Below, piece by piece: positions 1 through 64,000 of a stretch of 64,000 bases of DNA (its first letter is position 1; each line of letters begins with the position of its first letter). The translations under genes were made by a program, and so were the position numbers. The DNA is taken from positions 129,277 to 193,276 of the forward strand of contig JANBVJ010000001.1 in assembly GCA_024239055.1 (NCBI GenBank). The letters run 5' to 3'. The stretch comes from Patescibacteria group bacterium. Lineage in GTDB: Bacteria; Patescibacteriota; Minisyncoccia; Minisyncoccales; UBA10102. The notes below the pieces were generated by a model. It saw only the letters and a program-made list of their open reading frames with translations, had not been told where the DNA came from and made no database searches.

Positions 1-1264
1 TTTCAGCAACCGTTGTTTTGTTTGCGAGAGAAAAGACTACGTGACTAGATCCAATCCATTGAAGAGAGGATACTGGATCTGAAAATCGAGTCAGGAAGAT
101 TAAGTCTCCTTTATTATGTTTTGGTTGGTCGTTTTCTTCTTGTAAAAAATAGAGCAAGATTTCTGTATTCGTTAAAATACCAAGCTTTTTATTGTCCGGG
201 CTGAGACGAAGTTCTGAAACCTCTCCTGTGATATTTTGAAATTCTCTCTGTTCTTTTAGTACAAATAGAGTGTTATATTCTTGTAAAAATATTTCATTTG
301 AAAGAAGATGAAGTTTATATTCCACCTCTTGTCTTATTGGGAATCCAACCTCGTTTATTTGTTCAGCCAGAGCGTCTGAGGAAAGGTTTTGTTTCCATAG
401 AATTCCTTTACCATCAAGCCAGATAAGGTCTGAGTTTCTGATTCCAAAGGCTACGGCGTTATTTGTGAAAAAAGTAACTATTTCCTCTGTCTCATAATCC
501 GCTTCAAGAAGTGTTAGAGATGTTCCGGCTTGTTTGGTTGCAATAATACGGGTGGGGTGAGTTGGATTAAATAATATATTGGTTATGTTTTCCAAATAGG
601 ATAGGGTGCATTCTATCTCATGGCAAGCTGAACTTTCTGATCCCTCAAAGGATATAATACGGTGCTCTATGGTTTCTCCAATCCCAAGGCGTAGAATAAC
701 GCGTTCTCCTTTTTTACCCCACTGAACACTCTGTAGTTCTTGGTTTTGATGCGTTTGTTTAAGAAGTTGCACCTGTTCATTATTGGAAAGGTTCAGACGC
801 ATAAGCTCCCATCTGGTGTTTGGCATGGTGCGCTGCAGCAGTACTTCTTTCTCATTTGGGGACGGCCAGAGAGTTCGTATTTGTCCTACTATACTTTTAA
901 AGGAGACAGAATCTGGAAAGAGGATGATGTTTTTAGCTTCCGTTACTTCATGCTGAGCTGTCTGGAGTATTTTTTCCCAAGTAATGTATCCTTGTTTTTG
1001 GACACTTATGTGATATATGTCCGGCAGAAGATTTTCCAAGAGTGTTGTTCCAAAAAGAAAGTTTGTTGTAGTAGTTAGTTTTCCTTCTATATATACCTCA
1101 GCTGAGTTTGGTACAGCCTTAATATATAAACCACCTGTTCTTGTGAAAGAACGGGTTTGGAAATCTATTCTCCATCCCTGAGAGTAAAAGATAAGGGATG
1201 GGGTGATAATCAAGAATAAAGTAGTTAATCCAATAAAGAGAATCCTTCTGGTTTTTCTATTCAT
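1..1264 (-). CDS. PEGA-domain protein with N-terminal membrane anchor (partial; continues past the left window edge)
   Basis: Own reverse-strand translation from ATG at 1264: MNRKTRRILFIGLTTLFLIITPSLIFYSQGWRIDF..GGLYIKAVPNSAEVYIEGKLTTTTNFLFGTTLLENLLPDIYHISVQKQGYITWEKIL.. There are 421 codons without a stop down to base 1. It is missing from the ORF track only because it is open at the edge. A signal-anchor helix is followed by a PEGA-type motif. Confidence 0.6.
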   Translation of the reverse strand, partial: MNRKTRRILFIGLTTLFLIITPSLIFYSQGWRIDFQTRSFTRTGGLYIKAVPNSAEVYIEGKLTTTTNFLFGTTLLENLLPDIYHISVQKQGYITWEKILQTAQHEVTEAKNIILFPDSVSFKSIVGQIRTLWPSPNEKEVLLQRTMPNTRWELMRLNLSNNEQVQLLKQTHQNQELQSVQWGKKGERVILRLGIGETIEHRIISFEGSESSACHEIECTLSYLENITNILFNPTHPTRIIATKQAGTSLTLLEADYETEEIVTFFTNNAVAFGIRNSDLIWLDGKGILWKQNLSSDALAEQINEVGFPIRQEVEYKLHLLSNEIFLQEYNTLFVLKEQREFQNITGEVSELRLSPDNKKLGILTNTEILLYFLQEENDQPKHNKGDLIFLTRFSDPVSSLQWIGSSHVVFSLANKTTVAE

Positions 1265-1305
1265 ATCACTGTCAGTATAGATGAGTTTTATGCGGGGAGC
1301 AAGGG

Positions 1306-1334
1306 TTGACATTTCATTCGTTTTGTTATATGCA
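1306..1334 (+). promoter_or_regulatory. sigma70-like promoter for the 1380 gene
   Basis: TTGACA at 1306-1311; TATGCA at 17-nt spacing (or TATATG at 15 nt). Confidence 0.35.
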
Positions 1335-1379
1335 TAAACCAGCAACTAAAGCTACGAATACTGGATTAAGGAAAACATC

Positions 1380-3918: not shown

Positions 3919-4935
3919 ATGGGTATTTTTATTACAAAAATTGGAATTGATCTCGGTACCGCAAATTCTCTGGTATTCGTGCCGAGAAAGGGAATTGTGT
4001 TGCAGGAACCGTCTGTTGTGGCGGTTTCTCTTGATGATAACAAGATATTAGCGGTTGGGGAGGAGGCAAAAGAAATGACAGGGCGTACTCCTGATACTAT
4101 TCGGGTGTATCGTCCTATGCGAGACGGAGTCATCGCTGACTTTCGGGTGACACAAGCTATGATTCGCCATTTTCTCACGCGTGTTATTCCTCGCTTTCAA
4201 CCAATGAAACCAGAAGTGTTAATCTCAGTTCCAGCTGGTATTACCTCAACAGAAAAGAGAGCAGTCATTGAGGCTACTGTAAACGCAGGAGCTCGTTCAG
4301 CTTATGTGGCGAAAGAACCTATCTTGGCCGCCATTGGAGCTGGTATTCCCATTAACTCTTCTTCAGGACACATGATTGTTGATATTGGTGGAGGGACATC
4401 TGAGGTTGCCGTTATCTCGTTGGGAGGTATTGTGGTTTCTTCCTCGCTGCGCGTCGCAGGAGACAGGTTGGACCGTGCAATTTCAGATTTTATTAAAAAG
4501 AAGTATAACCTTGCTATTGGTGAGAAAACAGCAGAAGACATTAAGATAAAAATTGGGACTGCGGTTCCAGAAAAAGAGGAATTGACCTTTGAAATTAGAG
4601 GACGAGACCTATTACAGGGGTTGCCACGAACAATAAAGATATCTTCAAATGAGGTTGCTCAAGCCATTGCAGAACCATTGGAAGATATTCTGCAGGTGAT
4701 TAAGACTTTGCTCAGAGATACTCCCCCAGAGCTTTCAGCTGACATTATGGATAAAGGTATGGTTCTCTCAGGAGGCGGTGCTTTGCTTCGTAATATTGAC
4801 CAGTTGATTTCCGAATCCATCGGTGTTCCATGTTTTGTGGCTGACAACCCAATGCTTTGCGTTGCAAAAGGTACGGGAGCTGTTTTAGATAATCTGGACG
4901 TGTACAAACGTAGCATTATGCAAAAAAGGAAGTGA
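3919..4935 (+). CDS. mreB: rod-shape actin homolog MreB (paralog 1)
   Basis: IGIDLGTANSLVFV..EPSVVAV..DIGGGTSEVAVISLGG.. actin-fold phosphate motifs. Confidence 0.92.
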   Translation: MGIFITKIGIDLGTANSLVFVPRKGIVLQEPSVVAVSLDDNKILAVGEEAKEMTGRTPDTIRVYRPMRDGVIADFRVTQAMIRHFLTRVIPRFQPMKPEVLISVPAGITSTEKRAVIEATVNAGARSAYVAKEPILAAIGAGIPINSSSGHMIVDIGGGTSEVAVISLGGIVVSSSLRVAGDRLDRAISDFIKKKYNLAIGEKTAEDIKIKIGTAVPEKEELTFEIRGRDLLQGLPRTIKISSNEVAQAIAEPLEDILQVIKTLLRDTPPELSADIMDKGMVLSGGGALLRNIDQLISESIGVPCFVADNPMLCVAKGTGAVLDNLDVYKRSIMQKRK

Positions 4936-9621: not shown

Positions 9622-9912
9622 ATGGTTTTAAAAAAAGACGTAATCCGTATAGCTCAGCTTGCGAGGATACAAGTTTCCAATAAAGAGGTTGAAAAGTTTG
9701 TTGGTGAGTTTTCAGATATTCTCACTTATTTTGATACATTAAAAAAAGCAAAACTCAAGGGTATTCAACCAATGACACATTCTGTAACTTCGCAAAATGT
9801 TGTGCGCAAGGATGAAGGAAAAAAGGTAAGCGTAGAGGTAAAGAATAAATTGGTTGCAATGACCGAAACGACAAAAGGGGGATTTTCTAAGGTAAAAGCT
9901 ATTCTTCAATAG
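9622..9912 (+). CDS. gatC: Asp/Glu-tRNA amidotransferase subunit C
   Basis: 96 aa, sits directly upstream of gatA, with ..IAQLARIQVSNKEVEKF.. Confidence 0.85.
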   Translation: MVLKKDVIRIAQLARIQVSNKEVEKFVGEFSDILTYFDTLKKAKLKGIQPMTHSVTSQNVVRKDEGKKVSVEVKNKLVAMTETTKGGFSKVKAILQ

Positions 9913-9913
9913 T

Positions 9914-11332
9914 ATGGCAGATATTCTTTCCTATACCATAGAAGAGTTGAGTCAGAAGTTGGCAAAGCAAGAGATATCTTCTCTTGAGCTGACAAAGGCA
10001 TATCTGGACAGTATTAAAAAACAGGATAAGAATATTCATGCCTTTCTTTCTGTGGATGAAGCGTTAGCTTTAGCAGATGCCAAGAAGGCAGACACTCTAT
10101 TAAAGGATGCAAAGAATATTACAAAGCTCACAGGTATTCCCTATGGCGTGAAAGATGCTATTTTAGTTGAGGGTATGGTCTGCAGTGCTGGCTCAAAAAT
10201 GCTCAAAGATTATATTGCTCCATATGACGCTACGGTTATAATAAAGTTAAAGAAAGCCGGTGCTGTTATTTTAGGTAAAACCAATATGGATGAGTTTGGC
10301 ATGGGAGCGTCTACAGAGAACTCTGCCTTTGGCGTAACTAAGAACCCGCATGATGTAACACGTGTTCCAGGAGGCAGCTCTGGGGGTTCTTCAGCCGCTG
10401 TTTCAGCACATGAAAGCGTCTTTGCGCTAGGAGAGGACACAGGAGGCTCAATACGCCTTCCTGCCTCTTTTTGCGGGGTTGTTGGATTAAAGCCAACGTA
10501 TGGGGCGGTATCCAGGTATGGTATTATTGCCTTTGCCTCTTCTTTAGATCAGGTAGGACCTATAACAAAGACCGTGGATGATTGTAAGATTGTGTTTCAG
10601 GCTATTTCAGGACAAGATCCAATGGATTCAACCACAGTGGAATTAAAACTTAAGAAACCCGAGCGAAAGAAATTACGCATTGGTGTGCCAAAGGAATTTT
10701 TTACAAAGGGATTAGATAAGGATGTGGAAAAAGTTATAAAGGATACTATTGGAAAACTTGGGAACAAAGGAGCTATAATAAAAGAAGTGAGTCTCCCAAA
10801 TTTACAGTATGGCCTTGCAGCTTACTATATTATTAATATGTCAGAAGCTTCCGCGAACTTAGCACGATATGATGGCATTCGGTATGGACATAGGGGAAAG
10901 AAAGCCAAGAACTTAAGAGAGATGTATGAGGAGAATAGGGGAGAGGGATTTGGTGAAGAAGTAAAGCGTAGAATAATGCTTGGAACATATGCGCTTTCTG
11001 CGGGATACTATGATGCCTACTATTTGCAAGCCCAGAAGATGCGCACACTCCTACTCTCTGACTTTGAAAAGGTATTTAAGGACGTAGATGTGGTGGCGGG
11101 TCCCGTAAGTCCAGTACTTCCATTTAAGATAGGGGAGCGAATAGGAGATCCAATGTCCATGTATCTTGTAGATGCATATACAGTCCCAGCTAATCTTACT
11201 GGACTGCCAGCACTATCTGTTCCAGCGGGCAAGGTTGGAAAGCTTCCTGTTGGTATGCAGTTTATTTCAGGGAAATTTGAAGAGCCCACATTGTTTGCCG
11301 CAGGTAAAATGCTTGAAAAAATATATGTTTGA
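9914..11332 (+). CDS. gatA: Asp/Glu-tRNA amidotransferase subunit A
   Basis: Amidase signature GGSSGGSSAAV and GEDTGGSIRLPASFCG. Ends with TGA at full length, which supports the standard code. Confidence 0.94.
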   Translation: MADILSYTIEELSQKLAKQEISSLELTKAYLDSIKKQDKNIHAFLSVDEALALADAKKADTLLKDAKNITKLTGIPYGVKDAILVEGMVCSAGSKMLKDYIAPYDATVIIKLKKAGAVILGKTNMDEFGMGASTENSAFGVTKNPHDVTRVPGGSSGGSSAAVSAHESVFALGEDTGGSIRLPASFCGVVGLKPTYGAVSRYGIIAFASSLDQVGPITKTVDDCKIVFQAISGQDPMDSTTVELKLKKPERKKLRIGVPKEFFTKGLDKDVEKVIKDTIGKLGNKGAIIKEVSLPNLQYGLAAYYIINMSEASANLARYDGIRYGHRGKKAKNLREMYEENRGEGFGEEVKRRIMLGTYALSAGYYDAYYLQAQKMRTLLLSDFEKVFKDVDVVAGPVSPVLPFKIGERIGDPMSMYLVDAYTVPANLTGLPALSVPAGKVGKLPVGMQFISGKFEEPTLFAAGKMLEKIYV

Positions 11333-12858: not shown

Positions 12859-13884
12859 GTGGAAAACAACCTAAAAACACTTAAAAATACGGCTGAAAAA
12901 GGGATAAAACAGGCTAAAAATCTTAAGGATTTGGATGGTGTTTTTCGTTTATATTTAGGACGTAAAGGAGAGCTTACTGGTATTCTGCGTTCTCTTAAAG
13001 ATATGCCTTCAAAGGAACGTTCTGCATTTGGGAAGGAGGCTAATGAAGTAAGGCAGGTTTTACAGGAGGCATTTGATAGCAGACAAAAAGAGCTTGGCTG
13101 GAGCAATGAAACACAAGAAGGATCGATTGACGTGACAGCCCCAGGCCAGAAAATTCAGGCAGGACATCTACATCCCATTACGCAAACTAGGCGCAAGGTG
13201 GAAGAAATCTTCGGTTCTATGGGTTTTGTGGTGGCAGACGGACCTGAGGTAGAGGATGAGTGGCATAATTTTGATGCTTTAAATATTCCCGCTGGCCATC
13301 CAGCACGGGATCTATGGGATACCTTTTGGTTGAAAGCTGAAATAAACAAGAAACCTTTGCTATTGCGTACCCACACATCCCCAGTTCAGATACGGTATAT
13401 GCAAGAACACAAGCCACCAATCCGCATTATTGCTCCAGGACGTACTTTCAGATATGAGGCAACCGATGCGGGCCATGAGATTAACTTTTATCAGGTGGAG
13501 GGGCTAATGATAGATGAAAATATCTCAGTTGCAAACTTCAAAGCTGTTATTCAGGAGTTCTTCAAGAGATTCTTTGAAAAGGATGTCACTATTCGTCTGC
13601 GGCCAAGTTATTTTCCGTTTACCGAGCCCTCTTTTGAAGTTGATATCTCCTGCGTTCTCTGTGAAGGAAAAGGGTGCAGCAGTTGCGAACACACAGGATG
13701 GTTTGAAATGCTGGGGGCTGGCATGGTTCATCCAAAGGTATTGAAAGCAGTAGGATATAACCCAAAGAATCTACGTGGATTTGCATTTGGAATGGGCATG
13801 GACCGTCTAGCTATGATGAAGTACAAGATTCCAGATGTCAGAATGTTCTTTGCTTCTGATTTAAAGTTTCTTAAACAGTTTTAA
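12859..13884 (+). CDS. pheS: phenylalanyl-tRNA synthetase alpha subunit
   Basis: ..LYLGRKGELTGILRSL.., HPARDLWDTFW, FRYEATDAGHEINFYQVEGL, GFAFGMGMDRLAM. Confidence 0.94.
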   Translation: MENNLKTLKNTAEKGIKQAKNLKDLDGVFRLYLGRKGELTGILRSLKDMPSKERSAFGKEANEVRQVLQEAFDSRQKELGWSNETQEGSIDVTAPGQKIQAGHLHPITQTRRKVEEIFGSMGFVVADGPEVEDEWHNFDALNIPAGHPARDLWDTFWLKAEINKKPLLLRTHTSPVQIRYMQEHKPPIRIIAPGRTFRYEATDAGHEINFYQVEGLMIDENISVANFKAVIQEFFKRFFEKDVTIRLRPSYFPFTEPSFEVDISCVLCEGKGCSSCEHTGWFEMLGAGMVHPKVLKAVGYNPKNLRGFAFGMGMDRLAMMKYKIPDVRMFFASDLKFLKQF

Positions 13885-13885
13885 T

Positions 13886-17948
<4,063 letters not shown>

Positions 17949-18192: not shown

Positions 18193-18738
18193 ATGGCAAA
18201 ACAACAGACCGAGCAAAACAGAAACTGGTATGTACTTCACACCTATTCTGGATATGAGGATGCTGTTTCCAGAAACCTGAAGCAGCGTATTGAATCTTTG
18301 GGCATGGAAGATAAGATTTTTAATGTTATTGTTCCAAAGGAAAAGAAGATTCGTATTAAGAACGGACAGAGAAAGACTATTGAAGAGAAGATTTATCCAG
18401 GATATGTTTTAGTGGAGATGATTGTTACGGATGACTCCTGGTATGTGGTCAGAAACACGCCAAATGTTACGGGATTTATTGGGGCGGGTACCGTTCCAAT
18501 TCCAGTGTCTGGAGCTGAGATTGAGATGCTGCAGTCCCGCATGGGATCTGATGAACCGGAGTACGAAATTTCAGTATCTGTTGGAGATGCTGTCAAGATA
18601 ATGGATGGTCCTTTCAAAGAGTATGATGGAAAGGTTTCAGAAGTGGATGCATCTAAAGGAAAGGTAAAAGTTTTGGTTAATCTTTTTGGAAGAGATACTC
18701 CAGTAGAATTGGATTCCCTACAGATTCAAAAATTATAA
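18193..18738 (+). CDS. nusG: transcription termination/antitermination factor NusG
   Basis: [11 protein letters not shown].. NGN domain and a C-terminal KOW ([18 protein letters not shown]). Confidence 0.94.
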
Positions 18739-18742
18739 TATC

Positions 18743-19165
18743 ATGGCAAAAACAATTACAGCCGTAGTAAAGTTACATATTCCTGCCGGGCAAGCCACCC
18801 CTGCTCCTCCTGTCGGGCCGGCTTTAGCACAGCATGGCATTAACATCGGGGAATTTACACAGAAGTTTAACGAGGCTACAAAAGAAAAGTCAGGATTTAA
18901 GATTCCCGTAGATATCATTGTTTATGAAGACAGGACCTTTGACTTAAAACTCCATGAGCCACCAGCATCTGAACTCATCAAAAAAATTCTTGGTATTGAA
19001 AAGGGATCTGGTGAGCCAAATAAAAAGAAGATAGGGACTATTACACAAGCCCAACTGCGTCAGGTAGCGGAACAGAAGATGTCAGACTTAAATACTACGG
19101 ACGTTGAGCAGGCAATGAAGATTATTGAGGGTACAGCAAAGAATATGGGTCTGGAGATTGAATAA
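18743..19165 (+). CDS. rplK: 50S ribosomal protein L11
   Basis: [29 protein letters not shown].. Confidence 0.96.
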
Positions 19166-38592: not shown

Positions 38593-38664
38593 GGGGGTGT
38601 AGTGTCAGCGGTAGCACGATGGTTTCCAAAACCATTAGCCTGGGTTCGAATCCTAGCACCCCTG
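38593..38664 (+). tRNA. tRNA-Trp(CCA)
   Basis: Hand fold: GGGGGTG/CACCCCT acceptor, anticodon loop TTCCAAA, T loop TTCGAAT. The CCA anticodon is consistent with UGA being a stop. Confidence 0.9.
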
Positions 38665-38712
38665 CGGATTATTGACAGTACCACAGAGATGTGGTATTGT
38701 TTTTAGAGAACC
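38642..38712 (+). repeat. direct repeat copy 1: tRNA-Trp 3' end plus promoter/operator (TTGACA-17-TATTGT)
   Basis: TCCTAGCACCCCTGC..TTATTGACAGTACCACAGAGATGTGGTATTGTTT. The palindrome ACCACA-GAGA-TGTGGT lies at 38680-38695, with -35 at 38672-38677 and -10 at 38695-38700. Confidence 0.8.
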
Positions 38713-38736
38713 ACCTGTTTCATCGGAGGAGCAGAA

Positions 38737-38931
38737 ATGATAGAAGAAAGGCCGAGCCTTAAAGCTGTCTTTGATGCTCGTACCTGTGACAGCTCGATTG
38801 ACGGATGTGACCCTGACTGGCGAGACTGGGTCTTAAGAAACGCTGACCCTGAGCACATGGCAGCAATAGATGAAGCTTTTCGTCAAGGCACGGAAAGTGA
38901 AGCAAAACTCAATCTTGGCATCTGGCCATAG
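38737..38931 (+). CDS. hypothetical 64-aa acidic protein (cassette gene 1)
   Basis: GGAGGAG SD 5 nt upstream; higher GC; MIEERPSLKAVFDARTCDSSIDGCDPDWRDWVLRNADPEHMAAIDEAF.. Confidence 0.6.
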   Translation: MIEERPSLKAVFDARTCDSSIDGCDPDWRDWVLRNADPEHMAAIDEAFRQGTESEAKLNLGIWP

Positions 38932-38941
38932 GAGGTAAGAA

Positions 38942-39325
38942 ATGGTTAAAGAAACCGAAGTACAGGAAAGCCCAGTTTTGACACTCCCCGAAGATGCTGA
39001 GCGAGTTGAGATGCTTCGCAGAAAACTCGGGGAGTACGAAGAACGTATCGAAACCTACCATGACGAGAACCAAAGTCAACATCCTGCATTCAGAGCGTTG
39101 CAGTTAGCAACCACGACCTGCAAGATGACCATCCTCAAGCAATTACTGGATGAAGGTAGGGTGGTTGCCTGGGATGCTTCCAAGGCGTTTATAGATGAAC
39201 GTCTGGAAGAAAATAAGAGCTCAGGAGCTCATTTCGCCGAAGCATGGATGACAGCATTTGAGGTCATCAATGACTACTGCGAAACAGGAGGTGCAAATGT
39301 AGGCGGTGGAACTGGACTGCGTTAG
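38942..39325 (+). CDS. hypothetical 127-aa helical acidic protein (cassette gene 2)
   Basis: GGAGGT SD; higher GC; I recognise no motif; followed by a terminator. Confidence 0.6.
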   Translation: MVKETEVQESPVLTLPEDAERVEMLRRKLGEYEERIETYHDENQSQHPAFRALQLATTTCKMTILKQLLDEGRVVAWDASKAFIDERLEENKSSGAHFAEAWMTAFEVINDYCETGGANVGGGTGLR

Positions 39326-39347
39326 CTTCCTGTATCAACTCGTAACA

Positions 39348-39385
39348 AGCCCCAACGAGTATAAATAAGGGGCTCTTTTCTTTTA
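39348..39385 (+). terminator. intrinsic terminator after cassette gene 2
   Basis: AGCCCC..GGGGCT stem followed by CTTTTCTTTT. Confidence 0.6.
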
Positions 39386-39432
39386 AACAAAACTTAATTC
39401 TTCTAGTTCTCCTTTTATCCTAATCCAATCAA

Positions 39433-39510
39433 GAGTTCTGAACTTGTCCAAGAACCCCTGCTATTTATTGACGATACCGCAGAGATGTGGTATTGTTTGT
39501 TTAGAGACAA
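39433..39510 (+). repeat. direct repeat copy 2: degenerate tRNA-Trp 3'-end relic plus promoter/operator (TTGACG-17-TATTGT)
   Basis: GAGTTCTGAA..TCCAAGAACCCCTGC (13/15 identical to tRNA-Trp positions 38651-38665), then TTATTGACGATACCGCAGAGATGTGGTATTGTTT. Confidence 0.75.
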
Positions 39511-39531
39511 AGGGAGACAAGGAGAAACATC

Positions 39532-39756
39532 GTGGATATCCCTAGGGATAAAACCTATCCAGAAGAAAGCGTTCAATGTCATGGATGCGGTGGGAATGGA
39601 TGTCAGAAGTGCGACAATCGTGGATGGTTAACTCCTCAAGATCATCCAGACGGGCGACGATGTGCATACTTAAAATGTAATCGTCCGCTTCCTCCAACAC
39701 TGGTTGCCGTCTATCATTCTGATGAATGCGCAAAATTGGACGCACAAGTTCTTTGA
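39532..39756 (+). CDS. 74-aa DnaJ-type zinc-finger mini-protein
   Basis: GTG start after AGGAGA. CHGCGGNGCQKCDNRGW (CxxCxGxG-type) plus a second Cys/His cluster CAYLKC..HSDEC. Confidence 0.55.
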   Translation: MDIPRDKTYPEESVQCHGCGGNGCQKCDNRGWLTPQDHPDGRRCAYLKCNRPLPPTLVAVYHSDECAKLDAQVL

Positions 39757-39769
39757 AAAGGAGGTTATC

Positions 39770-39961
39770 ATGGCAAAAGGCTGTGAAGAGCGAATATGCA
39801 GATGTGGCTATTCAGTTGTCTGCACATGGATGGCAGAAGCTTGGAGTCCATTTCCTGTAATTATTAGGGCAGTAAAAAAACAGGAAGAGGAAGAGATTCC
39901 TGATCAAATCTGCCCAAACTGCAAGGAACCCATTAATATGCAGAATACGGTTCTCGTGTAA
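39770..39961 (+). CDS. 63-aa zinc-ribbon mini-protein
   Basis: AGGAGG SD 6 nt before ATG 39770: MAKGCEERICRCGYSVVC..ICPNCKEPINMQNTVLV. Confidence 0.55.
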   Translation: MAKGCEERICRCGYSVVCTWMAEAWSPFPVIIRAVKKQEEEEIPDQICPNCKEPINMQNTVLV

Positions 39962-40062
39962 TGCAACTGCTCCTTGGAAGGCTAACCTGCAATAGGTCGG
40001 CCTTTTTCTTTGTATAAGAAAACACCCCTATTAAGAGGTGCTTTCTACAATGTGTGTAACTC

Positions 40063-40383
40063 TTACATCTTTGCTGAACCCGGCAAAGCTATACCCATCT
40101 TGTTTAAGTTTCGAAAGATGGAGGCTAACAGGGCTACGGCAACAAGAACAAAGACAACTGGGACTATGAATCCAAGAGAAGGAATAGCTTGTCCTACGAG
40201 TGAGATTACTGCAAATCCAAAGACATATCCTACAATTCCTTTTTTCATAAATCCAGCTACTTTGCCAAACCGGAACTGTTTTTTCATAACAGCTCCCACT
40301 AGTCCCAATATGACGTCAATTCCTATTAAGATGACAATATACTGGGTGAAGTTGCCTGCAAGTATATCTGTTAATGTTGGCAT
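40063..40383 (-). CDS. phage-holin-family membrane protein (holin_4 / toxin-secretion-lysis holin-like)
   Basis: 106 aa with 3 TM segments. IDVILGLVGAVMKKQFRFGKVAGFMKKGIVGYV and the C-terminal ASIFRNLNKMGIALP match, by eye, the ..D.ITG...A.K...S..G..G..KK.. and ..NE.ISILEN...G..IP pattern of that family. A minus-strand hairpin plus T-run lies at 40017-40045. Confidence 0.55.
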   Translation of the reverse strand: MPTLTDILAGNFTQYIVILIGIDVILGLVGAVMKKQFRFGKVAGFMKKGIVGYVFGFAVISLVGQAIPSLGFIVPVVFVLVAVALLASIFRNLNKMGIALPGSAKM

Positions 40384-40484
40384 TTTATTGTATACGTACT
40401 ACTATTGGTTATAATATATCAATTCTCGACCTTTATGGTATTATACAGGTCTTCAAGCTGATACTAAAAGCGTTTTATCCACAT

Positions 40485-40985
40485 ATGGCATCTTTAGAGA
40501 TTACAATATATCCTAATCCTATTCTTGCAAAGAAAGCAGAAGCGGTAGGAGACGTTACACCAGGAATAAAAGAGCTTATGCCTCAGATGGTTTTTGCCAT
40601 GCAAGAGAATGATGGAATTGGCCTTGCAGCCCCTCAGGTTAATGTTTCCAAACGCATTATTGTTATTCAGGACGGGGAAGAGGTAAAGACATACATTAAT
40701 CCTAGGATTATACATAAATCTCGTGAAAAGCACCTAGACGAAGAAGGATGTTTGAGTCTACCTGGTATATTTTTTGATGTGAGGCGTCCATCCTCAATTG
40801 AGGTTGAGGTTCAGACTCCAGAAGGCAAACTGGTCAAAATTAAGGCCGAAGGTCTCACTGCCCGTATTCTTCAACACGAGATAGATCACTTAGAAGGGAA
40901 ACTCATTATTAACCGTATTCCATTCTGGAGGAGATGGAAGCTACGGGAACAACTACAAGAGCTTAAAAATTATGCCATTCGCTGA
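40485..40985 (+). CDS. def: peptide deformylase
   Basis: GIGLAAPQV, EGCLSLPG, HEIDHLEG. I place the start at the internal ATG 40485. Confidence 0.94.
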   Translation: MASLEITIYPNPILAKKAEAVGDVTPGIKELMPQMVFAMQENDGIGLAAPQVNVSKRIIVIQDGEEVKTYINPRIIHKSREKHLDEEGCLSLPGIFFDVRRPSSIEVEVQTPEGKLVKIKAEGLTARILQHEIDHLEGKLIINRIPFWRRWKLREQLQELKNYAIR

Positions 40986-43208: not shown

Positions 43209-43727
43209 ATGCCAAAAACAAAGATACAAAAACAAGAGATTTCTAAAAATCTTGCTGAGAAACTTAAGACTCAGCAGGGGATTGTGTTTGTGGATTATAA
43301 AGGACTGAATGTGGGAGATATGACAGAATTGCGTGCAACAATTAAGGAAAATGAGGGGAACCTTACGGTTACTAAAAAAACCATACTTTCCCGTGTGTTA
43401 AAAGAAAAAGGGATTGATATAAATCTTAAAGAGATGAAGGGGCAGATTGCAGTAATATTTGCCTTTGGAGATTCAATAGCTCCGCTTCAGGCACTTCATA
43501 CCTTTGCAAAAGTTCATGAAAACGTAAAGATTCTTGGTGGATATTTAGAAAATGAAATACAATCTGCATCCGCAATGATTGCAATAGCTCAGCTTCCTTC
43601 GAGAAACGAGCTGTTGGCCGAAGCAGTTGGTTCTATAGCTGCCCCAATGTCAGGATTTGTGCGGGTGTTGAATGGTAATGTAAAAGGTCTGGTGATGGCA
43701 TTAAACGCCATCGCGCAAAAGAAATAA
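43209..43727 (+). CDS. rplJ: 50S ribosomal protein L10
   Basis: 172 aa with ..[19 protein letters not shown]..; upstream of rplL. Confidence 0.93.
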
Positions 43728-43740
43728 TAATATAACTATC

Positions 43741-44199
43741 ATGGCAGAAGAAATAAAAGATACTCCTCAAGAGGAAAAAGAAGAGGAGACAAAAACAAAA
43801 GAGGTTGAGGTTCCCGCTAAGTTTGCAAGCTTAGTTGAGAGCATTGAAAAGCTTTCTGTACTGGACTTAGCTGAGTTAGTTAAGATTCTTGAAGAGAAGT
43901 TTGGTGTCTCAAGTGCCGCTCCCGTGCAAGTTGCAGCCGCAGCTCCGGGTAACGGAGAGGAGGCAGCAGATGATGCAAAGAGTTCCTACAACATTGAATT
44001 AACTGTGGTAGGGGAAAAGAAGATTGAGGTCATTAAAGCCGTACGTGATGCTACAGGCAAAGGACTTAAAGAAGCCAAAGATCTAGTTGACGCCGCAGCA
44101 GCCTCCCCCCAGATGGTTTCAGAGAACGTAAAAGCAGAAGAGGCAGAAGAGCTAAAGAAAAAGTTCACGGAAGCTGGAGCTACTGTTGAACTAAAGTAG
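43741..44199 (+). CDS. rplL: 50S ribosomal protein L7/L12 with an acidic N-terminal extension
   Basis: ..[19 protein letters not shown].. and [24 protein letters not shown]. Confidence 0.94.
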
Positions 44200-60986: not shown

Positions 60987-62393
60987 TTAAAATGGTTCTT
61001 TTGTTGGCTCCTCACCGTTTATGGGCTCTTGCATATCTTTTCCCAAATCACTAAAACTAACTGTTTTTTCATTAAAGAATAACTTTACTCCACCTACTGG
61101 TCCATTTCTATGCTTTGCCACAATAATATGAGCTATATTCTTATCTGGTGTATCAGGTCGATACTTATCTTCGCGGTATATAAACATGACGACATCGGCA
61201 TCCTGTTCTAAAGCACCAGACTCCCTAAGATCAGGTAGACGAGGTATTGGAGGAATTCTCCGTTCCACTTCTCTAGATAATTGAGATAATGCTACAACAG
61301 GAATGTTTAACTCCCGTGCCAACTGCTTTAAGGAACGGGATATCTCTGTAATCTGTTGAACGATAGGGGCTTGTGAGTTTCTTGGCTCAATAAGCTGTAG
61401 ATAATCAATAATAAGTAGACCAAGTCCCTGATTTGCCTGCAGGCGCCTTGCCATAGCCCGCATCTGCAAAATATTTATGCCAGGGGTATCATCTACAAAT
61501 ATAGGGGCTTCCGATAAAGTACCTAAAGCTGTCTGTATTCTCTCAAAGTCATTATCCTGACCTTGATGAGATAGCTTTCCTGTGCGTAACCTCCACAAGT
61601 CTACACCTGCTTGAGCGGCAATAAATCTATCCACCACCTGATCTTTTGACATCTCCAAACTAAATATACCAACTGGAATCTTGTGATTTAATGCCACACG
61701 TCTTCCAATATCCATAGCTAATGCTGACTTCCCTAAAGAAGGACGAGCAGCTAGTATAATTAAGTCTGACTTCTGGAATCCTGAAAGTATATTATCTAAA
61801 TCCTTAAATCCAGTTGGAACTCCTCTTGTGCCACCATCATTCTTTGAGAGTCTGTCTATTCTCTCAAAGGCCTCTTCTAGGGCATCTTTAATCTTTGTAA
61901 AGTTCTTAGAAAGGGATTTTTGAGAAAGAGCAAAAAGACTCGCCTCAGCCTTATCTAATAAAATATCTGATTCTTCTTTTTCATCGTACCCCATTAACTC
62001 TATTTCTTGAGAAACACTAATCATATCACGTAAGATACGCTTTGACTGGACTATTTTGGCATACGTAAGAATATGAGAAGCAGTGGGTACCATATTAATA
62101 AGATCTGTAAGATATGCCTGACCTCCAATACTCTCTAACTGTTTCTTTTCTTTTAATCTTGATGCCACAGAAAGTAAATCTATAGGATCTGATCTATCAA
62201 ATAACTCTTCCATGGCGGTATAAATAATGCCATGATTACCTTTATAAAAATCTCTCGATTCCAATAAATCTATAACTTTAAGAATTGCATCCTTATCTAA
62301 CATTAAGGCACCCAAACATGACATCTCAGCCTCAATGTTTTGAGGAGGAAGTTTAATAATACTTTGTGTTGTTTGCGTTTGAGAATCTGGCAT
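60987..62393 (-). CDS. dnaB: replicative DNA helicase DnaB
   Basis: PPQNIEAEMSCLGALML, Walker A ARPSLGKSA, Walker B IIDYLQL. Confidence 0.95.
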   Translation of the reverse strand: MPDSQTQTTQSIIKLPPQNIEAEMSCLGALMLDKDAILKVIDLLESRDFYKGNHGIIYTAMEELFDRSDPIDLLSVASRLKEKKQLESIGGQAYLTDLINMVPTASHILTYAKIVQSKRILRDMISVSQEIELMGYDEKEESDILLDKAEASLFALSQKSLSKNFTKIKDALEEAFERIDRLSKNDGGTRGVPTGFKDLDNILSGFQKSDLIILAARPSLGKSALAMDIGRRVALNHKIPVGIFSLEMSKDQVVDRFIAAQAGVDLWRLRTGKLSHQGQDNDFERIQTALGTLSEAPIFVDDTPGINILQMRAMARRLQANQGLGLLIIDYLQLIEPRNSQAPIVQQITEISRSLKQLARELNIPVVALSQLSREVERRIPPIPRLPDLRESGALEQDADVVMFIYREDKYRPDTPDKNIAHIIVAKHRNGPVGGVKLFFNEKTVSFSDLGKDMQEPINGEEPTKEPF

Positions 62394-62447
62394 ATTTATA
62401 TTTTTAGATTAACAAAAATAAATTTTTATAACAACCATATAACAATT

Positions 62448-63818
62448 TTATATTTTTTGAATTTTATACCCACTATTTGTATCTTGTAGTTTCCAACCCA
62501 TATCAATTAATTTATTTCGTACTAAATCAGCTTCTTTATATTTTTTTTGGTTTCTTAAATCTTCTCTTTTTTGAGCTAATTTCTTTATATTTTCTGGAAT
62601 TGATAAATCTTTTTCTTTAATTATAAATCCAAATATTTTATCTATTTTTTTTATGTATAAAAGAATTTCCTGTGAATCTTTTGTTGAAAACTTTTCTTTT
62701 GCAATTAACGAATTACTTTTTTTAATTAAATATAGTAAAGAAGTTAAAACAAGTGGAGTATTAAAATCATCTTCCATAGATCTTTTAAAAATTAATTTAA
62801 ATTCTTTTAATATATTATTATTTTCTTTTCCTTTTTGAGAATCATTTAATTTTCCAATAAATTCATCTATACGTTCTAATTCTTTCTCTGCTTGTTCTAT
62901 TCTTCTTTCTGAGTATTGAAGAGGGGAGCGATAGCTAGTCTTTGAGACAAGATAGCGTAGTAGACGGGCTGGGTGATCTTTTAAGAACTCTTCAATGGTA
63001 ATGAAGTTATTTAATGACTTTGACATCTTTTGCTTCTCCATACGCAGAAGCCCTGAATGTATCCAGTATCTAACAAGAGGGGATTTACCTGAGATTGCTT
63101 CCATCTGAGATATCTCAGCCTCATGATGAGGAAAGATAAGATCTATTGCTCCTCCATGCATATCATACTGCACTCCAAACTCCTTTTCTGTAATGGCTGT
63201 ATCCTCAATGTGCCAACCAGGACGTCCCTCTCCCCATGGACTATCCCATTTGGGTTCTCCTTTCTTTGAGAGCTTCCACAAGGCAAAGTCGCCTTTGTTT
63301 CTTTTGTCTTTTGCTTCGTCAATACGAGAGACTGCATCCTCAGCTCCCTGCTTTGTTCTACCAGATAGCTTACCGTAGTCTTTAAACTTTGAAATATCGT
63401 AATAAATACCGTCTTTCAACTCATATGCGTATCCTTTTTTTATTAATCTCTCAATTTGGGAGATAATCTCTTTTATGTATGAAGTAGCTCTGGCATATTT
63501 GTCAGGGCTATCAATACCAAGACTTTTCATGTCTTTTAAGAATGACTTTTCAAACTCCAAAGCTAACTTATTTGGTTCTTTATTCTGTTCTTTTGCCCGC
63601 TGAATTATCTTGTCATCAATATCTGTAATGTTTATAAGATAGGAAACATTAAAACCAGCATATCGAAGGTATTTTACAATGATGTCAAAGATAATATATG
63701 TTCTGGCATGGCCAAGATGCGAGGAATCATAGACTGTAGGCCCACAAACAAAAAGTTTAAGCTTCTTTGGCTTTATAACTTCCTTTTTTCTGGAAATAGT
63801 ATTAAAGATTCGTATCAT
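62448..63818 (-). CDS. cysS: cysteinyl-tRNA synthetase
   Basis: MIRIFNT.., CGPTVYDSSHLGHAR (HIGH), KMSKS. TGaTAGAAT lies 7 nt upstream of ATG 63818. The last about 155 codons are about 20% GC. Confidence 0.92.
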   Translation of the reverse strand: MIRIFNTISRKKEVIKPKKLKLFVCGPTVYDSSHLGHARTYIIFDIIVKYLRYAGFNVSYLINITDIDDKIIQRAKEQNKEPNKLALEFEKSFLKDMKSLGIDSPDKYARATSYIKEIISQIERLIKKGYAYELKDGIYYDISKFKDYGKLSGRTKQGAEDAVSRIDEAKDKRNKGDFALWKLSKKGEPKWDSPWGEGRPGWHIEDTAITEKEFGVQYDMHGGAIDLIFPHHEAEISQMEAISGKSPLVRYWIHSGLLRMEKQKMSKSLNNFITIEEFLKDHPARLLRYLVSKTSYRSPLQYSERRIEQAEKELERIDEFIGKLNDSQKGKENNNILKEFKLIFKRSMEDDFNTPLVLTSLLYLIKKSNSLIAKEKFSTKDSQEILLYIKKIDKIFGFIIKEKDLSIPENIKKLAQKREDLRNQKKYKEADLVRNKLIDMGWKLQDTNSGYKIQKI

Positions 63819-63880: not shown

Positions 63881-64000
63881 ATGATGTTGAAAAAAGATCT
63901 CGTTAACAGCGGCATAATAGGATTCATTATTGCCGTTATCTTATTAGGAATATCAAAAAATATTTCAATTGAAGTTCCGAATCTATGGATGGCTCTTTTT
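63881..64000 (+). CDS. start of a membrane-protein ORF (partial; runs off the right edge)
   Basis: Own translation: MMLKKDLVNSGIIGFIIAVILLGISKNISIEVPNLWMALF.. with no stop before the window end. Confidence 0.35.
   Translation, partial: MMLKKDLVNSGIIGFIIAVILLGISKNISIEVPNLWMALF

What the first reader, a model, noticed from the sequence alone, without database searches (positions are those of the whole stretch)
38642..39510. 0.8-kb two-gene cassette bracketed by about 70-bp direct repeats carrying a degenerate copy of the tRNA-Trp 3' end
The intact tRNA-Trp ends at 38664. About 796 bp downstream, a second copy of its T-arm/acceptor 3' strand appears: GAGTTCTGAA...TCCAAGAACCCCTGC, which is 13/15 identical to TCCTAGCACCCCTGC. 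In both copies the same about 45 bp follows: TTATTGAC(A/G)..ACC(A/G)CAGAGATGTGGTATTGTTT..TTAGAGA. An intact tRNA on one side, a decayed 3'-end copy on the other, and compositionally foreign genes with strong SD sites in between are the classical footprint of site-specific integration into a tRNA gene. However, the cargo is only two tiny ORFs (64 and 127 aa, no recognisable motif) and there is no recombinase. It may be a miniature integrative cassette mobilised in trans, or the decayed stump of a larger element.
Basis: partly seen in the sequence, partly recalled or inferred. Interest (0 to 1): 0.65.

Follow-up and report, generated by a model that had tools for sequence, protein, structure and literature searches.

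The report
Serine-recombinase cassette footprint at tRNA-Trp
The repeat downstream of tRNA-Trp is the leftover attachment site of a mobile element driven by a large serine recombinase, including the last 22 codons of that recombinase gene, and the same site separates small gene cassettes in arrays next to tRNA genes in many ultra-small (CPR) bacteria.

Summary
Window 38651-38709 and 39447-39505 are 81% identical direct repeats. With a 5-nt indel the similarity reaches back into the tRNA-Trp T-arm.

Copy 2 is not a decayed tRNA end. It is the P arm of a large-serine-recombinase (LSR) attP. On the minus strand, 39451-39386 encodes the last 22 residues of an LSR (LDKFRTLDWIRIKGELEELSFV*), followed by a tRNA-Trp-like tail. 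A profile of about 40 such elements hits it at E=6e-13.

In related loci the same element runs on into recombinase gene fragments. Full-length relatives have Resolvase, Recombinase and Zn-ribbon domains. In the integrated state the gene abuts a tRNA 3' end in antisense.

Two relatives have an empty site, with tRNA-Trp followed directly by def. The closest relative lacks the cassette. About 1.8 kb (38666-40487) is therefore inserted.

Homologues of the 127-aa gene sit in the same kind of cassette in two other genomes. One of these is an 11-site array.

No recombinase body survives in the window. The best reading is a recombinase-less cassette deposited by LSR recombination at the tRNA-Trp 3' end, making a one- or two-unit version of tRNA-linked cassette arrays.

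This is a new variant of known kinds: tRNA islands, LSR integration, and tycheposon- or integron-like accretion. Cargo function is unknown.

The parts
38593..38665 (+). Intact tRNA-Trp (CCA). Its last ~24 nt (38642-38665, T-loop, T-stem 3' strand and acceptor 3' strand) act as the left (B) half-site.
   Evidence: ARAGORN. Rfam tRNA, 57.4 bits. The 3' 40 nt are identical in the closest relative L080, which diverges right after 38665.
38666..38712 (+). Right flank of junction 1 (B'1). It holds a sigma-70-like promoter (-35 at 38672-38677, -10 at 38695-38700, extended -10 TG) with the palindrome ACCACAGAGATGTGGT in the spacer. It reads into cassette 1.
   Evidence: The same promoter type follows P sites in L003 and L049.
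38737..38931 (+). Cargo ORF of 64 aa with a strong SD. No family match.
   Evidence: Pfam, PHROGs and PADLOC found nothing.
38942..39325 (+). Cargo ORF of 127 aa, predicted to be mainly helical (four long helices plus two short strands). Function unknown. It is a cassette gene found in three genomic contexts.
   Evidence: Homologues are P0001 (99%), P0002 (59%, L002) and P0003 (54%, L003). AF2 mean pLDDT is 84.8 with no significant PDB match.
39348..39384 (+). Terminator-like hairpin (AGCCCC-15 nt-GGGGCT) with a T-rich tail after the 127-aa ORF.
   Evidence: Read directly from the sequence. It was not flagged by the scan because the loop exceeds 8 nt. Analogous terminators precede P sites in L002 and L003.
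39383..39461 (-). P arm of an LSR attP (the attR left half). It comprises the stop codon (39385-39383), 22 C-terminal LSR codons LDKFRTLDWIRIKGELEELSFV (39451-39386), and the tRNA-Trp-like tail AAGAACCCCTGC up to 39461.
   Evidence: nhmmer E=5.9e-13. Translation. Alignment with LSR C-termini P0007, P0009 and L006. The outer motif is shifted 5 nt relative to the tRNA arm.
39462..39510 (+). Right flank of junction 2 (B'2). Second copy of the promoter (-35 at 39468, -10 ending at 39496). It reads into cassette 2.
39532..39961 (+). Second cargo unit: a 74-aa Cys-rich ORF (39532-39756) and a 63-aa Cys-rich ORF (39770-39961). No P site follows them.
   Evidence: Both are absent from the empty-site relatives. 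No second P arm was found in the window.
40063..40383 (-). Holin-family small membrane protein (PF05105). It is accessory relative to L084 and L087, but L082 has a 53%-identical homologue in the same position.
38666..40487 (.). All DNA between tRNA-Trp and def. It is absent from the relatives L084 and L087, where def follows the tRNA by 89 nt and 4 nt respectively.

Best explanation
The two repeats are two attachment-site junctions of a large-serine-recombinase (LSR) system that targets the 3' end of tRNA genes.

In the parent elements, attP lies inside the last ~40 codons of the recombinase gene. Read antisense, those codons (W/L-L-P-x-L-D-E/K-F-R-T-L-N/D-W...) form a tRNA 3'-end mimic: a T-arm-like motif plus an acceptor-like tail. 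Crossover happens at or within a few nt of the tRNA's 3' end.

Integration therefore leaves two junctions:
- the intact tRNA joined to the recombinase body (attL);
- the last recombinase codons plus the tRNA-like tail joined to the old downstream flank (attR).

In the window, copy 2 (39383-39510) is such an attR-type junction (P.B'). Copy 1 (38642-38712) is an attB-type junction (tRNA-Trp.B') with no recombinase next to it.

The 0.8-kb unit consists of promoter, 64-aa ORF, 127-aa ORF, terminator and P arm. It is a discrete, recombinase-less cassette sitting at the tRNA-proximal end of a 1.8-kb accessory segment.

The most likely route (inferred) is that an LSR supplied by a complete element placed the unit there. 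One option is that the LSR module integrated together with the cassette and then excised through attL x the proximal attR. The other is that a cassette circle carrying P.B' recombined with the tRNA site. Either route rebuilds an attB-like tRNA junction and pushes older cargo downstream. Repetition of this would produce the multi-cassette arrays seen in other CPR genomes.

Shown: the identity of the site, its LSR origin, the insertion relative to relatives, and the modular recurrence of the cassette. Inferred: the order of events, the current activity of the system, and the exact crossover position.
For: 1. LSR origin of copy 2.
- The profile hit is E=5.9e-13.
- The minus-strand peptide aligns with LSR C-termini.
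- In L006, L163 and L164 the same element continues upstream into LSR coding sequence.
- 204 database proteins match that C-terminal part. P0120 carries the Zn_ribbon_recom domain. P0007 is annotated as a site-specific recombinase and ends ...SPNWLPQLDMFRTLNWRQIKLDLEFSG....
- Full-length relatives P0126, P0127 and P0129 have Resolvase, Recombinase and Zn_ribbon_recom.
- Codon-position entropy follows 3 > 1 > 2, and synonymous changes are most frequent in that frame.

2. Integrated-state architecture.
- Full-length LSRs end in tRNA-antisense peptides such as GQDSNLRP and GLDSNQRPSG.
- In L051 an LSR fragment abuts tRNA-His antisense, and the P arm lies 3.5 kb downstream.
- In L162 the LSR abuts a tRNA-Asn 3' fragment.
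- Distant viral LSRs overlap tmRNA, tRNA-Leu and tRNA-Asp in the same way.

3. Half-site anatomy.
- The site tail matches the local tRNA 3' end: Asn ...GGAGC in most loci and Trp CCCCTGC here, with weaker partial resemblance for His (L051) and Pro (L004, about 9 of 15 nt); in L050 the tail does not match the adjacent tRNA-Asn.
- The outer GTTC..GAA motif lies 5 nt further from the junction than in the tRNA arm. This is the attP/attB zinc-ribbon-motif offset described for serine integrases (PMC3783163).

4. Insertion.
- L084 and L087 have tRNA-Trp directly followed by def-pcm-mltG.
- L080 (trmD 86% identical) diverges right after the tRNA and lacks the cassette.

5. Cassette modularity.
- The 127-aa gene plus terminator plus P arm recurs in L003, bracketed by two sites and driven by the same promoter type.
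- It also recurs in L002, as the first unit of an 11-site array.
- L165 has tRNA-Asn followed by 9 sites. L017 has 4 sites.

6. No recombinase.
- There is no recombinase-domain hit among the called, Pfam-annotated genes and the two extra ORFs checked across the window, and no LSR body by tblastn. Several called genes have no Pfam hit at all, and window 1-1379 and the uncalled small ORFs were not Pfam-scanned.
- There is no P'-arm remnant at the tRNA junction.
Against: - No LSR gene was found in the window. Only 64 kb plus flanks of the 245-kb scaffold could be read, so a cognate enzyme in this genome is unproven.
- Canonical serine integrases recombine only attP x attB, or attL x attR with an RDF. 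Direct cassette-circle (P.B') x attB recombination has no precedent. The alternative two-step route is inferred, not observed.
- The two junction flanks are 81% identical, not 100%. The event is therefore not very recent, or the flanks are independent members of one promoter family.
- Cassette 2 has no P arm at its distal end, so the right boundary of the accessory segment is undefined.
- The only genome sharing the cassette is a near-identical one (P0001, 99%), so a single ancient event followed by decay cannot be excluded.
- The exact crossover position is not mapped.
Confidence: 0.75

Rival explanations
1. This is the decayed stump of one ordinary integrated element. A complete LSR element, possibly a prophage, once sat at tRNA-Trp. 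Ordinary deletions then removed the recombinase body and most of the cargo, leaving two small ORFs and the attR.
For: Decayed examples exist. L051 keeps a 119-aa LSR fragment next to tRNA-His. L041, L036, L038 and L049 keep short LSR remnants beside sites. The 120 best of the 204 protein hits listed are fragments of 83-230 aa. A holin-family gene lies downstream. L164 looks phage-like.
Against: The tRNA junction carries no trace of the P' arm or LSR body. Instead it carries a clean copy of the same promoter flank that follows the P arm. Random deletion would have to end exactly at the tRNA 3' end. The same gene-plus-P-arm module occurs between two sites in L003 and in an array in L002. Most tRNA-linked loci (9 of 10) also lack an LSR at the tRNA.
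Confidence: 0.2
2. This is a local duplication without site-specific recombination. The tRNA 3' end plus promoter was duplicated by slippage or unequal crossing-over, and the intervening ORFs are native.
For: The copies are direct repeats only 796 bp apart. The repeated part contains a functional-looking promoter.
Against: Copy 2's left part is homologous to a recombinase gene end found in dozens of other genomes, not to this tRNA. The block is absent from relatives. The composition is foreign.
Confidence: 0.02
3. This is a tyrosine-recombinase system: a classical integron (IntI with attC) or a Xer/dif-type module.
For: Arrays of small, mostly unknown cassettes separated by a conserved site resemble integron arrays. 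My first reading of the L002 repeat saw a 9-6-9 imperfect dyad.
Against: No Phage_integrase hit appears among the called genes in the window or in L002. The site has no attC-like R''/L''-L'/R' palindrome. It is colinear with a serine-recombinase gene end.
Confidence: 0.03

Closest known systems
Large serine recombinase (serine integrase) integration, e.g. A118, Bxb1 or phiC31-type attP x attB
   Same: The enzyme family has Resolvase, Recombinase and Zn-ribbon domains. The sites are short. The P-type half-site has its outer motif 5 bp further from the centre than the B-type half-site. The products are hybrid attL and attR junctions.
   Different: The target is the 3' end of tRNA or tmRNA genes, not a protein-coding gene. 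attP is embedded in the recombinase's own 3' coding end, so integration swaps the enzyme's last ~35 residues for a tRNA-antisense peptide. Many chromosomal sites are attR-type junctions in tandem with no recombinase.
SSV1-type archaeal integrases (int gene partitioned by integration into a tRNA gene)
   Same: The att site lies inside the recombinase gene and matches a tRNA 3' part. Integration splits the gene, and fragments persist as footprints next to tRNAs. This comparison rests on my own knowledge, not on a tool result.
   Different: SSV integrases are tyrosine recombinases split near the N-terminus and are inactivated by the split. Here a serine recombinase loses only its extreme C-terminus, and its full-length ORF persists in the integrated state.
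Tycheposons and tRNA-linked genomic islands of Prochlorococcus (Hackl et al., bioRxiv 10.1101/2020.12.28.424599)
   Same: Elements integrate at tRNA genes. Successive integrations push older ones into the island. Partial tRNA copies and fragmented integrases are scattered through the islands. A minority use large serine recombinases.
   Different: The hosts here are CPR/Patescibacteria. The units are tiny, at 0.3-2 kb and one to three small ORFs. The separators are recombinase-gene ends rather than plain partial tRNAs. Arrays usually contain no integrase at all.
Integron gene-cassette arrays (IntI, attI, attC) and CALINs
   Same: It works alike at the level of architecture. There are unidirectional arrays of small, mostly unknown-function cassettes, each ending in a conserved recombination site and anchored at one fixed primary site. 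Arrays often lack the recombinase.
   Different: There is no tyrosine recombinase IntI, no folded-ssDNA attC structure and no Pc promoter. Each cassette tends to carry its own promoter and terminator. The anchor is a tRNA 3' end.

Membership tests
LSR-mediated integrative element (attL/attR footprint) | A large serine recombinase gene (Resolvase + Recombinase + Zn ribbon) belongs to the element | tested here: not met
   No LSR body in the window by tblastn. No recombinase Pfam domain among the called, Pfam-annotated genes. Only the last 22 codons survive at 39451-39386. The feature is met in related loci (P0126, P0127, P0129, L162).
LSR-mediated integrative element (attL/attR footprint) | The site is homologous to a bona fide attP or attR of that recombinase family | tested here: met
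   nhmmer E=5.9e-13. The same element is the 3' end of LSR genes in L006, L163 and L164.
LSR-mediated integrative element (attL/attR footprint) | P-type and B-type half-sites differ by a ~5-bp shift of the outer (zinc-ribbon-domain) motif | tested here: met
   GTTCGAA-TCC in the tRNA compares with GTTCTGAACTTG-TCC in copy 2, a difference of +5 nt. The same offset appears in the tRNA-Asn pairs examined and follows from the constant element length in the others. The rule comes from PMC3783163. Protein binding was not tested.
LSR-mediated integrative element (attL/attR footprint) | Recombination activity (excision or integration) at these sites | not testable with these tools
   No read-level data and no enzyme assay were available.
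Classical tRNA-gene genomic island | An intact tRNA at one end and a direct repeat of its 3' part at the other | tested here: met
   The tRNA-like part matches 13 of 15 nt. It is an attP mimic rather than a displaced tRNA end.
Classical tRNA-gene genomic island | An integrase gene adjacent to the tRNA | tested here: not met
   The promoter and the 64-aa ORF follow the tRNA directly.
Classical tRNA-gene genomic island | An empty site in relatives | tested here: met
   L084 and L087 have tRNA-Trp followed by def. L080 has different content.
Integron | An IntI tyrosine recombinase with attI | tested here: not met
   No Phage_integrase hit among the called genes in the window, L001, L160, L161 or L002.
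Integron | attC sites: imperfect palindromes with R''-L''...L'-R' (RYYYAAC...GTTRRRY) | tested here: not met
   Inspection of 55 site copies shows a colinear coding-derived element with no distal GTTRRRY partner. No attC covariance model was available, so this rests on inspection.
Tycheposon-like tRNA island accretion | Serial units at one tRNA separated by partial-tRNA or att repeats, with degenerate integrase fragments | tested here: met
   The window has one internal site and two cargo units. L165 has 9 sites at tRNA-Asn. L002 has 11 sites. Many LSR fragments exist. Tycheposon hallmark replication genes and tyrosine recombinases are absent, so this is a functional analogy, not family membership.

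The most novel reading that the evidence does not exclude
CPR/Patescibacteria may possess an integron-like gene-cassette accretion system run by a large serine recombinase. The recombinase's attP sits inside its own 3' coding end and mimics a tRNA 3' end. Recombinase-less mini-cassettes, each with a promoter, one to three small ORFs, a terminator and a P arm, would be captured, stacked and shuffled at tRNA 3' ends. They would form arrays of up to at least 11 units. The window would be a live one- or two-unit array at tRNA-Trp. This would be a main route of gene gain in these minimal genomes.
Probability: 0.35. Interest if true: 0.8.

Novelty: new variant of a known kind. Interest (0 to 1): 0.6.

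Why it matters
How CPR bacteria with ~0.5-1 Mb genomes, and few recognisable mobile elements in the loci examined here, acquire and turn over accessory genes is poorly understood.

This footprint ties a small, easily overlooked repeat to a specific enzyme family and a specific site grammar: a tRNA 3'-end mimic embedded in the recombinase gene. It also shows that the same ~100-nt element punctuates arrays of tiny cassettes next to tRNA genes in Paceibacteria, Saccharibacteria and other CPR lineages.

If the system is active, three things follow:
- it would be a serine-recombinase counterpart of integrons or tycheposons;
- it gives a simple sequence handle, the P-arm profile, for mapping accessory gene pools in CPR metagenomes;
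- it offers a set of natural tRNA-targeting serine integrases with readable attP/attB pairs.

If it is only a decay product, it is still a useful marker of past integrations.

Tried and rejected
- Rfam on the window region and four array loci found only tRNAs and no family for the element.
- Pfam and NCBIfam on the mini-ORF peptides found nothing. Pfam on the 147-aa L006 fragment also found nothing, because the tail lies beyond the Pfam domains.
- A protein database search with the 40-aa peptide found no candidates.
- My first pattern contained an extra base and gave zero hits. It was corrected.
- The integron attC or Xer/dif reading of the L002 repeat was rejected once the site proved colinear with an LSR gene end.
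- I tested whether the -35 TTGAC is the right half-site. TTGAC lies 12-20 nt after GTCCAA in only 9 of 55 sites. That is enriched but not universal, so no claim is made.
- A GGATT dyad around the tRNA end does not fit LSR spacing and was dropped.
- Viral-contig scans with the repeat core found nothing. Scans with the 17-mer gave only chance-like partial hits. An LSR single-sequence scan gave one distant hit.
- Cargo function could not be assigned. PHROGs and PADLOC found nothing significant. The AF2 model of the 127-aa protein is confident but has no PDB match at E<=0.001.
- Literature searches found no description of this CPR system. The library is incomplete, so prior description cannot be excluded.
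- P0001's contig could not be fetched.
Full report
**1. The observation**

The window carries khpA, trmD, tRNA-Tyr, tRNA-Thr, rpmG and tRNA-Trp (38593-38665). These are followed by two small ORFs (64 and 127 aa), a repeat, two further small Cys-rich ORFs, a minus-strand holin-family gene, and then def, pcm, mltG, a VTT-domain membrane protein gene, rplJ and rplL.

The repeat finder reports 38651-38709 vs 39447-39505: 59 nt, 81% identity, 796 bp apart. The 34-nt core occurs exactly twice in the window, against none in shuffles.

The part after the tRNA-like 15-mer is a sigma-70-type promoter, TTGACA-17-TATTGT with an extended -10 TG. G+C is 0.47-0.49 across 38600-39300, falling to 0.42-0.45 across 39300-40100, against roughly 0.35-0.40 in most flanking windows (local flank peaks reach 0.46).

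The 13/15 match to the tRNA end alone is weak evidence. It was reached in 15 of 2000 shuffles, and equal-scoring chance hits exist elsewhere in the window.

**2. What copy 2 really is**

The 127-aa protein has only three homologues. One of them, P0002 (59% identity), lies in a 516-kb contig (L002). There it sits in an array of small-ORF units separated by a repeat..GGTTCTAACATCGTCCAAccaGGGGAGC.. This repeat is homologous to the window's GAGTTCTGAACTTGTCCAAgaaCCCCTGC.

An exact-pattern scan of GTDB genomes returned 50 loci. About 30 come from CPR lineages, and several hold 2-4 copies within 8 kb.

Aligning them shows that the conserved element is about 100 nt long. On the strand opposite to the cassettes it reads (L)LP(L)-LDEFRTLNWxxIKxDLEFS..., with synonymous third-position changes.

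In L006, L019 and L051 this reading frame continues upstream for more than 100 codons. A protein search with that fragment gave 204 hits. One carries Zn_ribbon_recom, and one is annotated as a site-specific DNA recombinase and ends ...SPNWLPQLDMFRTLNWRQIKLDLEFSG....

An exhaustive search found full-length relatives of 504-519 aa with Resolvase, Recombinase and Zn_ribbon_recom domains. These are large serine recombinases.

The window's copy 2 therefore contains the last 22 codons and the stop of such a gene: minus strand, 39451-39383, LDKFRTLDWIRIKGELEELSFV*. A profile built from other genomes hits it at E=5.9e-13, and only once in the window.

**3. How the parent elements work**

Full-length LSRs in the databases end in peptides such as GQDSNLRP, GLDSNQRPSG and GRGSNPRQ. 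These are the antisense translation of a tRNA T-arm.

- In L051 an LSR fragment runs antisense into the 3' end of tRNA-His, and the P arm lies 3.5 kb further on.
- In L162 a full LSR abuts a tRNA-Asn 3' fragment.
- Distant relatives in viral contigs overlap tmRNA, tRNA-Leu and tRNA-Asp in the same way. Others carry a non-tRNA C-terminus, which is the free form.

So attP lies inside the 3' end of the recombinase gene. Integration exchanges the enzyme's last ~35 residues for a tRNA-antisense peptide. It also leaves the original C-terminal codons at the far end of the element.

The tail of the P arm follows the target tRNA. It is ..GGAGC next to tRNA-Asn and CCCCTGC here next to tRNA-Trp; the His (L051) and Pro (L004) tails resemble their tRNAs only partially, and the L050 tail does not match its adjacent tRNA-Asn.

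The outer GTTC..GAA motif sits 5 nt further from the junction in the P arm than in the tRNA arm. This matches the published rule that the zinc-ribbon-domain motif is shifted 5 bp between attP and attB half-sites (PMC3783163).

Conservation among sites stops at the end of the tail. This places the crossover at or within a few nt of the tRNA 3' end. That position is inferred, not mapped.

**4. Insertion and modularity**

Eighty metagenomic loci encoding trmD relatives were fetched.

- L084 and L087 (trmD 65-68% identical) have tRNA-Trp followed by def-pcm-mltG after 89 nt and 4 nt.
- L082 has a holin homologue and other genes in between.
- L080, the closest relative at 86% with an identical tRNA 3' half, diverges immediately after ...CCCCTGC. 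It carries unrelated DNA including an IS-like ORF.

Window 38666-40487 is therefore accessory, and the tRNA-Trp 3' end is a variable hotspot.

The 127-aa gene travels as a module together with a terminator and a P arm.

- In L003 a 54%-identical homologue is bracketed by two sites. It is driven by the same palindrome-containing promoter and followed by a P arm ending ...KELSFI*.
- In L002 it is the first unit of an 11-site array that begins with a bare tRNA-Asn 3' fragment.
- L165 shows tRNA-Asn followed by 9 sites over 9.3 kb. The most distal site is still joined to ~100 LSR codons.
- L017, a Saccharibacteria locus, has four sites.

**5. The state of the window**

No recombinase-domain hit is present among the called, Pfam-annotated genes across the window and about 5 kb beyond, and there is no LSR body by tblastn; genes without any Pfam hit and window 1-1379 were not further examined.

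The tRNA junction has no P' arm or LSR remnant. Instead it carries a clean copy of the promoter flank that also follows the P arm. Hence copy 1 is attB-like (B.B') and copy 2 is attR-like (P.B').

Two routes would give exactly this layout:

- integration of an LSR module together with the cassette, followed by excision of the module through attL and the proximal attR;
- recombination of a cassette circle with the tRNA site.

Either route, if repeated, would build the arrays seen elsewhere. Plain deletion decay of a single element is the main rival. It is disfavoured by the precise junction and by the modular recurrence, but it is not excluded.

Cassette 2 lacks a distal P arm, so the outer boundary of the segment is unresolved.

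**6. Cargo**

The 64-, 127-, 74- and 63-aa proteins have no significant match in Pfam, PHROGs or PADLOC.

The 127-aa protein is predicted with confidence to be mainly helical, four long helices plus two short strands (mean pLDDT 84.8). It has no significant PDB match. Its function remains unknown.

**7. Comparison and novelty**

The pieces are known kinds:

- serine-integrase chemistry and half-site grammar;
- tRNA-linked islands that grow by serial integration (tycheposons);
- recombinase genes partitioned by their own att site (SSV-type, from my own knowledge);
- integron-like cassette arrays.

The combination was not found in the searched literature. That combination is an LSR whose attP is a tRNA mimic within its own C-terminal codons, leaving recombinase-less mini-cassette arrays at tRNA genes across CPR.

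I rate it a new variant of a known kind, with interest 0.6. The more novel reading, an active integron-like LSR cassette system, is not excluded. I give it a probability of about 0.35.

Noticed in passing
L161 20596-20679 (same scaffold, ~4.2 kb beyond window position 64000): A second LSR C-terminal remnant (P arm, ...LQNVFRTFDWKTMREELELNF) lies between a DUF2806 gene and the next ORF, near an AbiEii gene. This genome has therefore been visited by such elements more than once.
   Followed up: partly
window 38679-38694 and 39475-39490: A palindrome (perfect ACCACA-GAGA-TGTGGT in copy 1; ACCGCA-GAGA-TGTGGT, one mismatch, in copy 2) sits between the -35 and -10 of both cassette promoters. The same promoter type with a related palindrome follows P sites in L003 and in a Saccharibacteria locus (L049). 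It may be an operator for an unknown regulator.
   Followed up: partly
L002 9643-16920: An array of 11 same-strand sites follows the gap gene. It begins with only a 24-nt tRNA-Asn 3' fragment and no tRNA. It contains a 279-nt internal duplication (9716-9994 / 13644-13922, 90% identity) carrying a 57-aa ORF.
   Followed up: partly
L165 10064-19705: tRNA-Asn is followed by 9 P sites over 9.3 kb. Only the most distal site is still fused to ~100 codons of LSR body. It is the clearest tRNA-anchored array seen.
   Followed up: partly
L014 65-135; L017 ~4430-4500; L046; L015 (right flanks of junctions): Several junctions are followed by a terminator hairpin and then, ~50 nt out, an inverted copy of the P core (GTTCAGAACT). 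Its meaning is unexplained. It could be an inverted remnant or an inversion site.
   Followed up: no
L168, L169, L174 (IMG/VR contigs): Distant LSR relatives (27-29% identity) in viral contigs end antisense inside tmRNA, tRNA-Leu and tRNA-Asp genes. L167, L171 and L172 carry a free-form C-terminus. The attP-inside-the-gene-end architecture is therefore broader than CPR.
   Followed up: partly
L164 1-8700: This is a phage-like contig with collagen-like fibre genes and a VanY/M15 peptidase. It carries an LSR C-terminal fragment with an intact P.P' site, which suggests that some parent elements are CPR phages.
   Followed up: no
L080 5949-7040 (minus strand): The closest relative carries a 363-aa IS/transposase-like ORF in the variable region downstream of tRNA-Trp. 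The annotation comes from inspecting the sequence and was not confirmed against Pfam.
   Followed up: no
window 18193-19100 and 43209-44199: nusG-rplK lie ~25 kb away from rplJ-rplL, and tRNA-Trp is not followed by secE-nusG. The usual rpmG-tRNA-Trp-secE-nusG-rplKAJL linkage is broken in this lineage.
   Followed up: no
window 62001-63000: G+C dips sharply to 0.274, against about 0.39 elsewhere.
   Followed up: no
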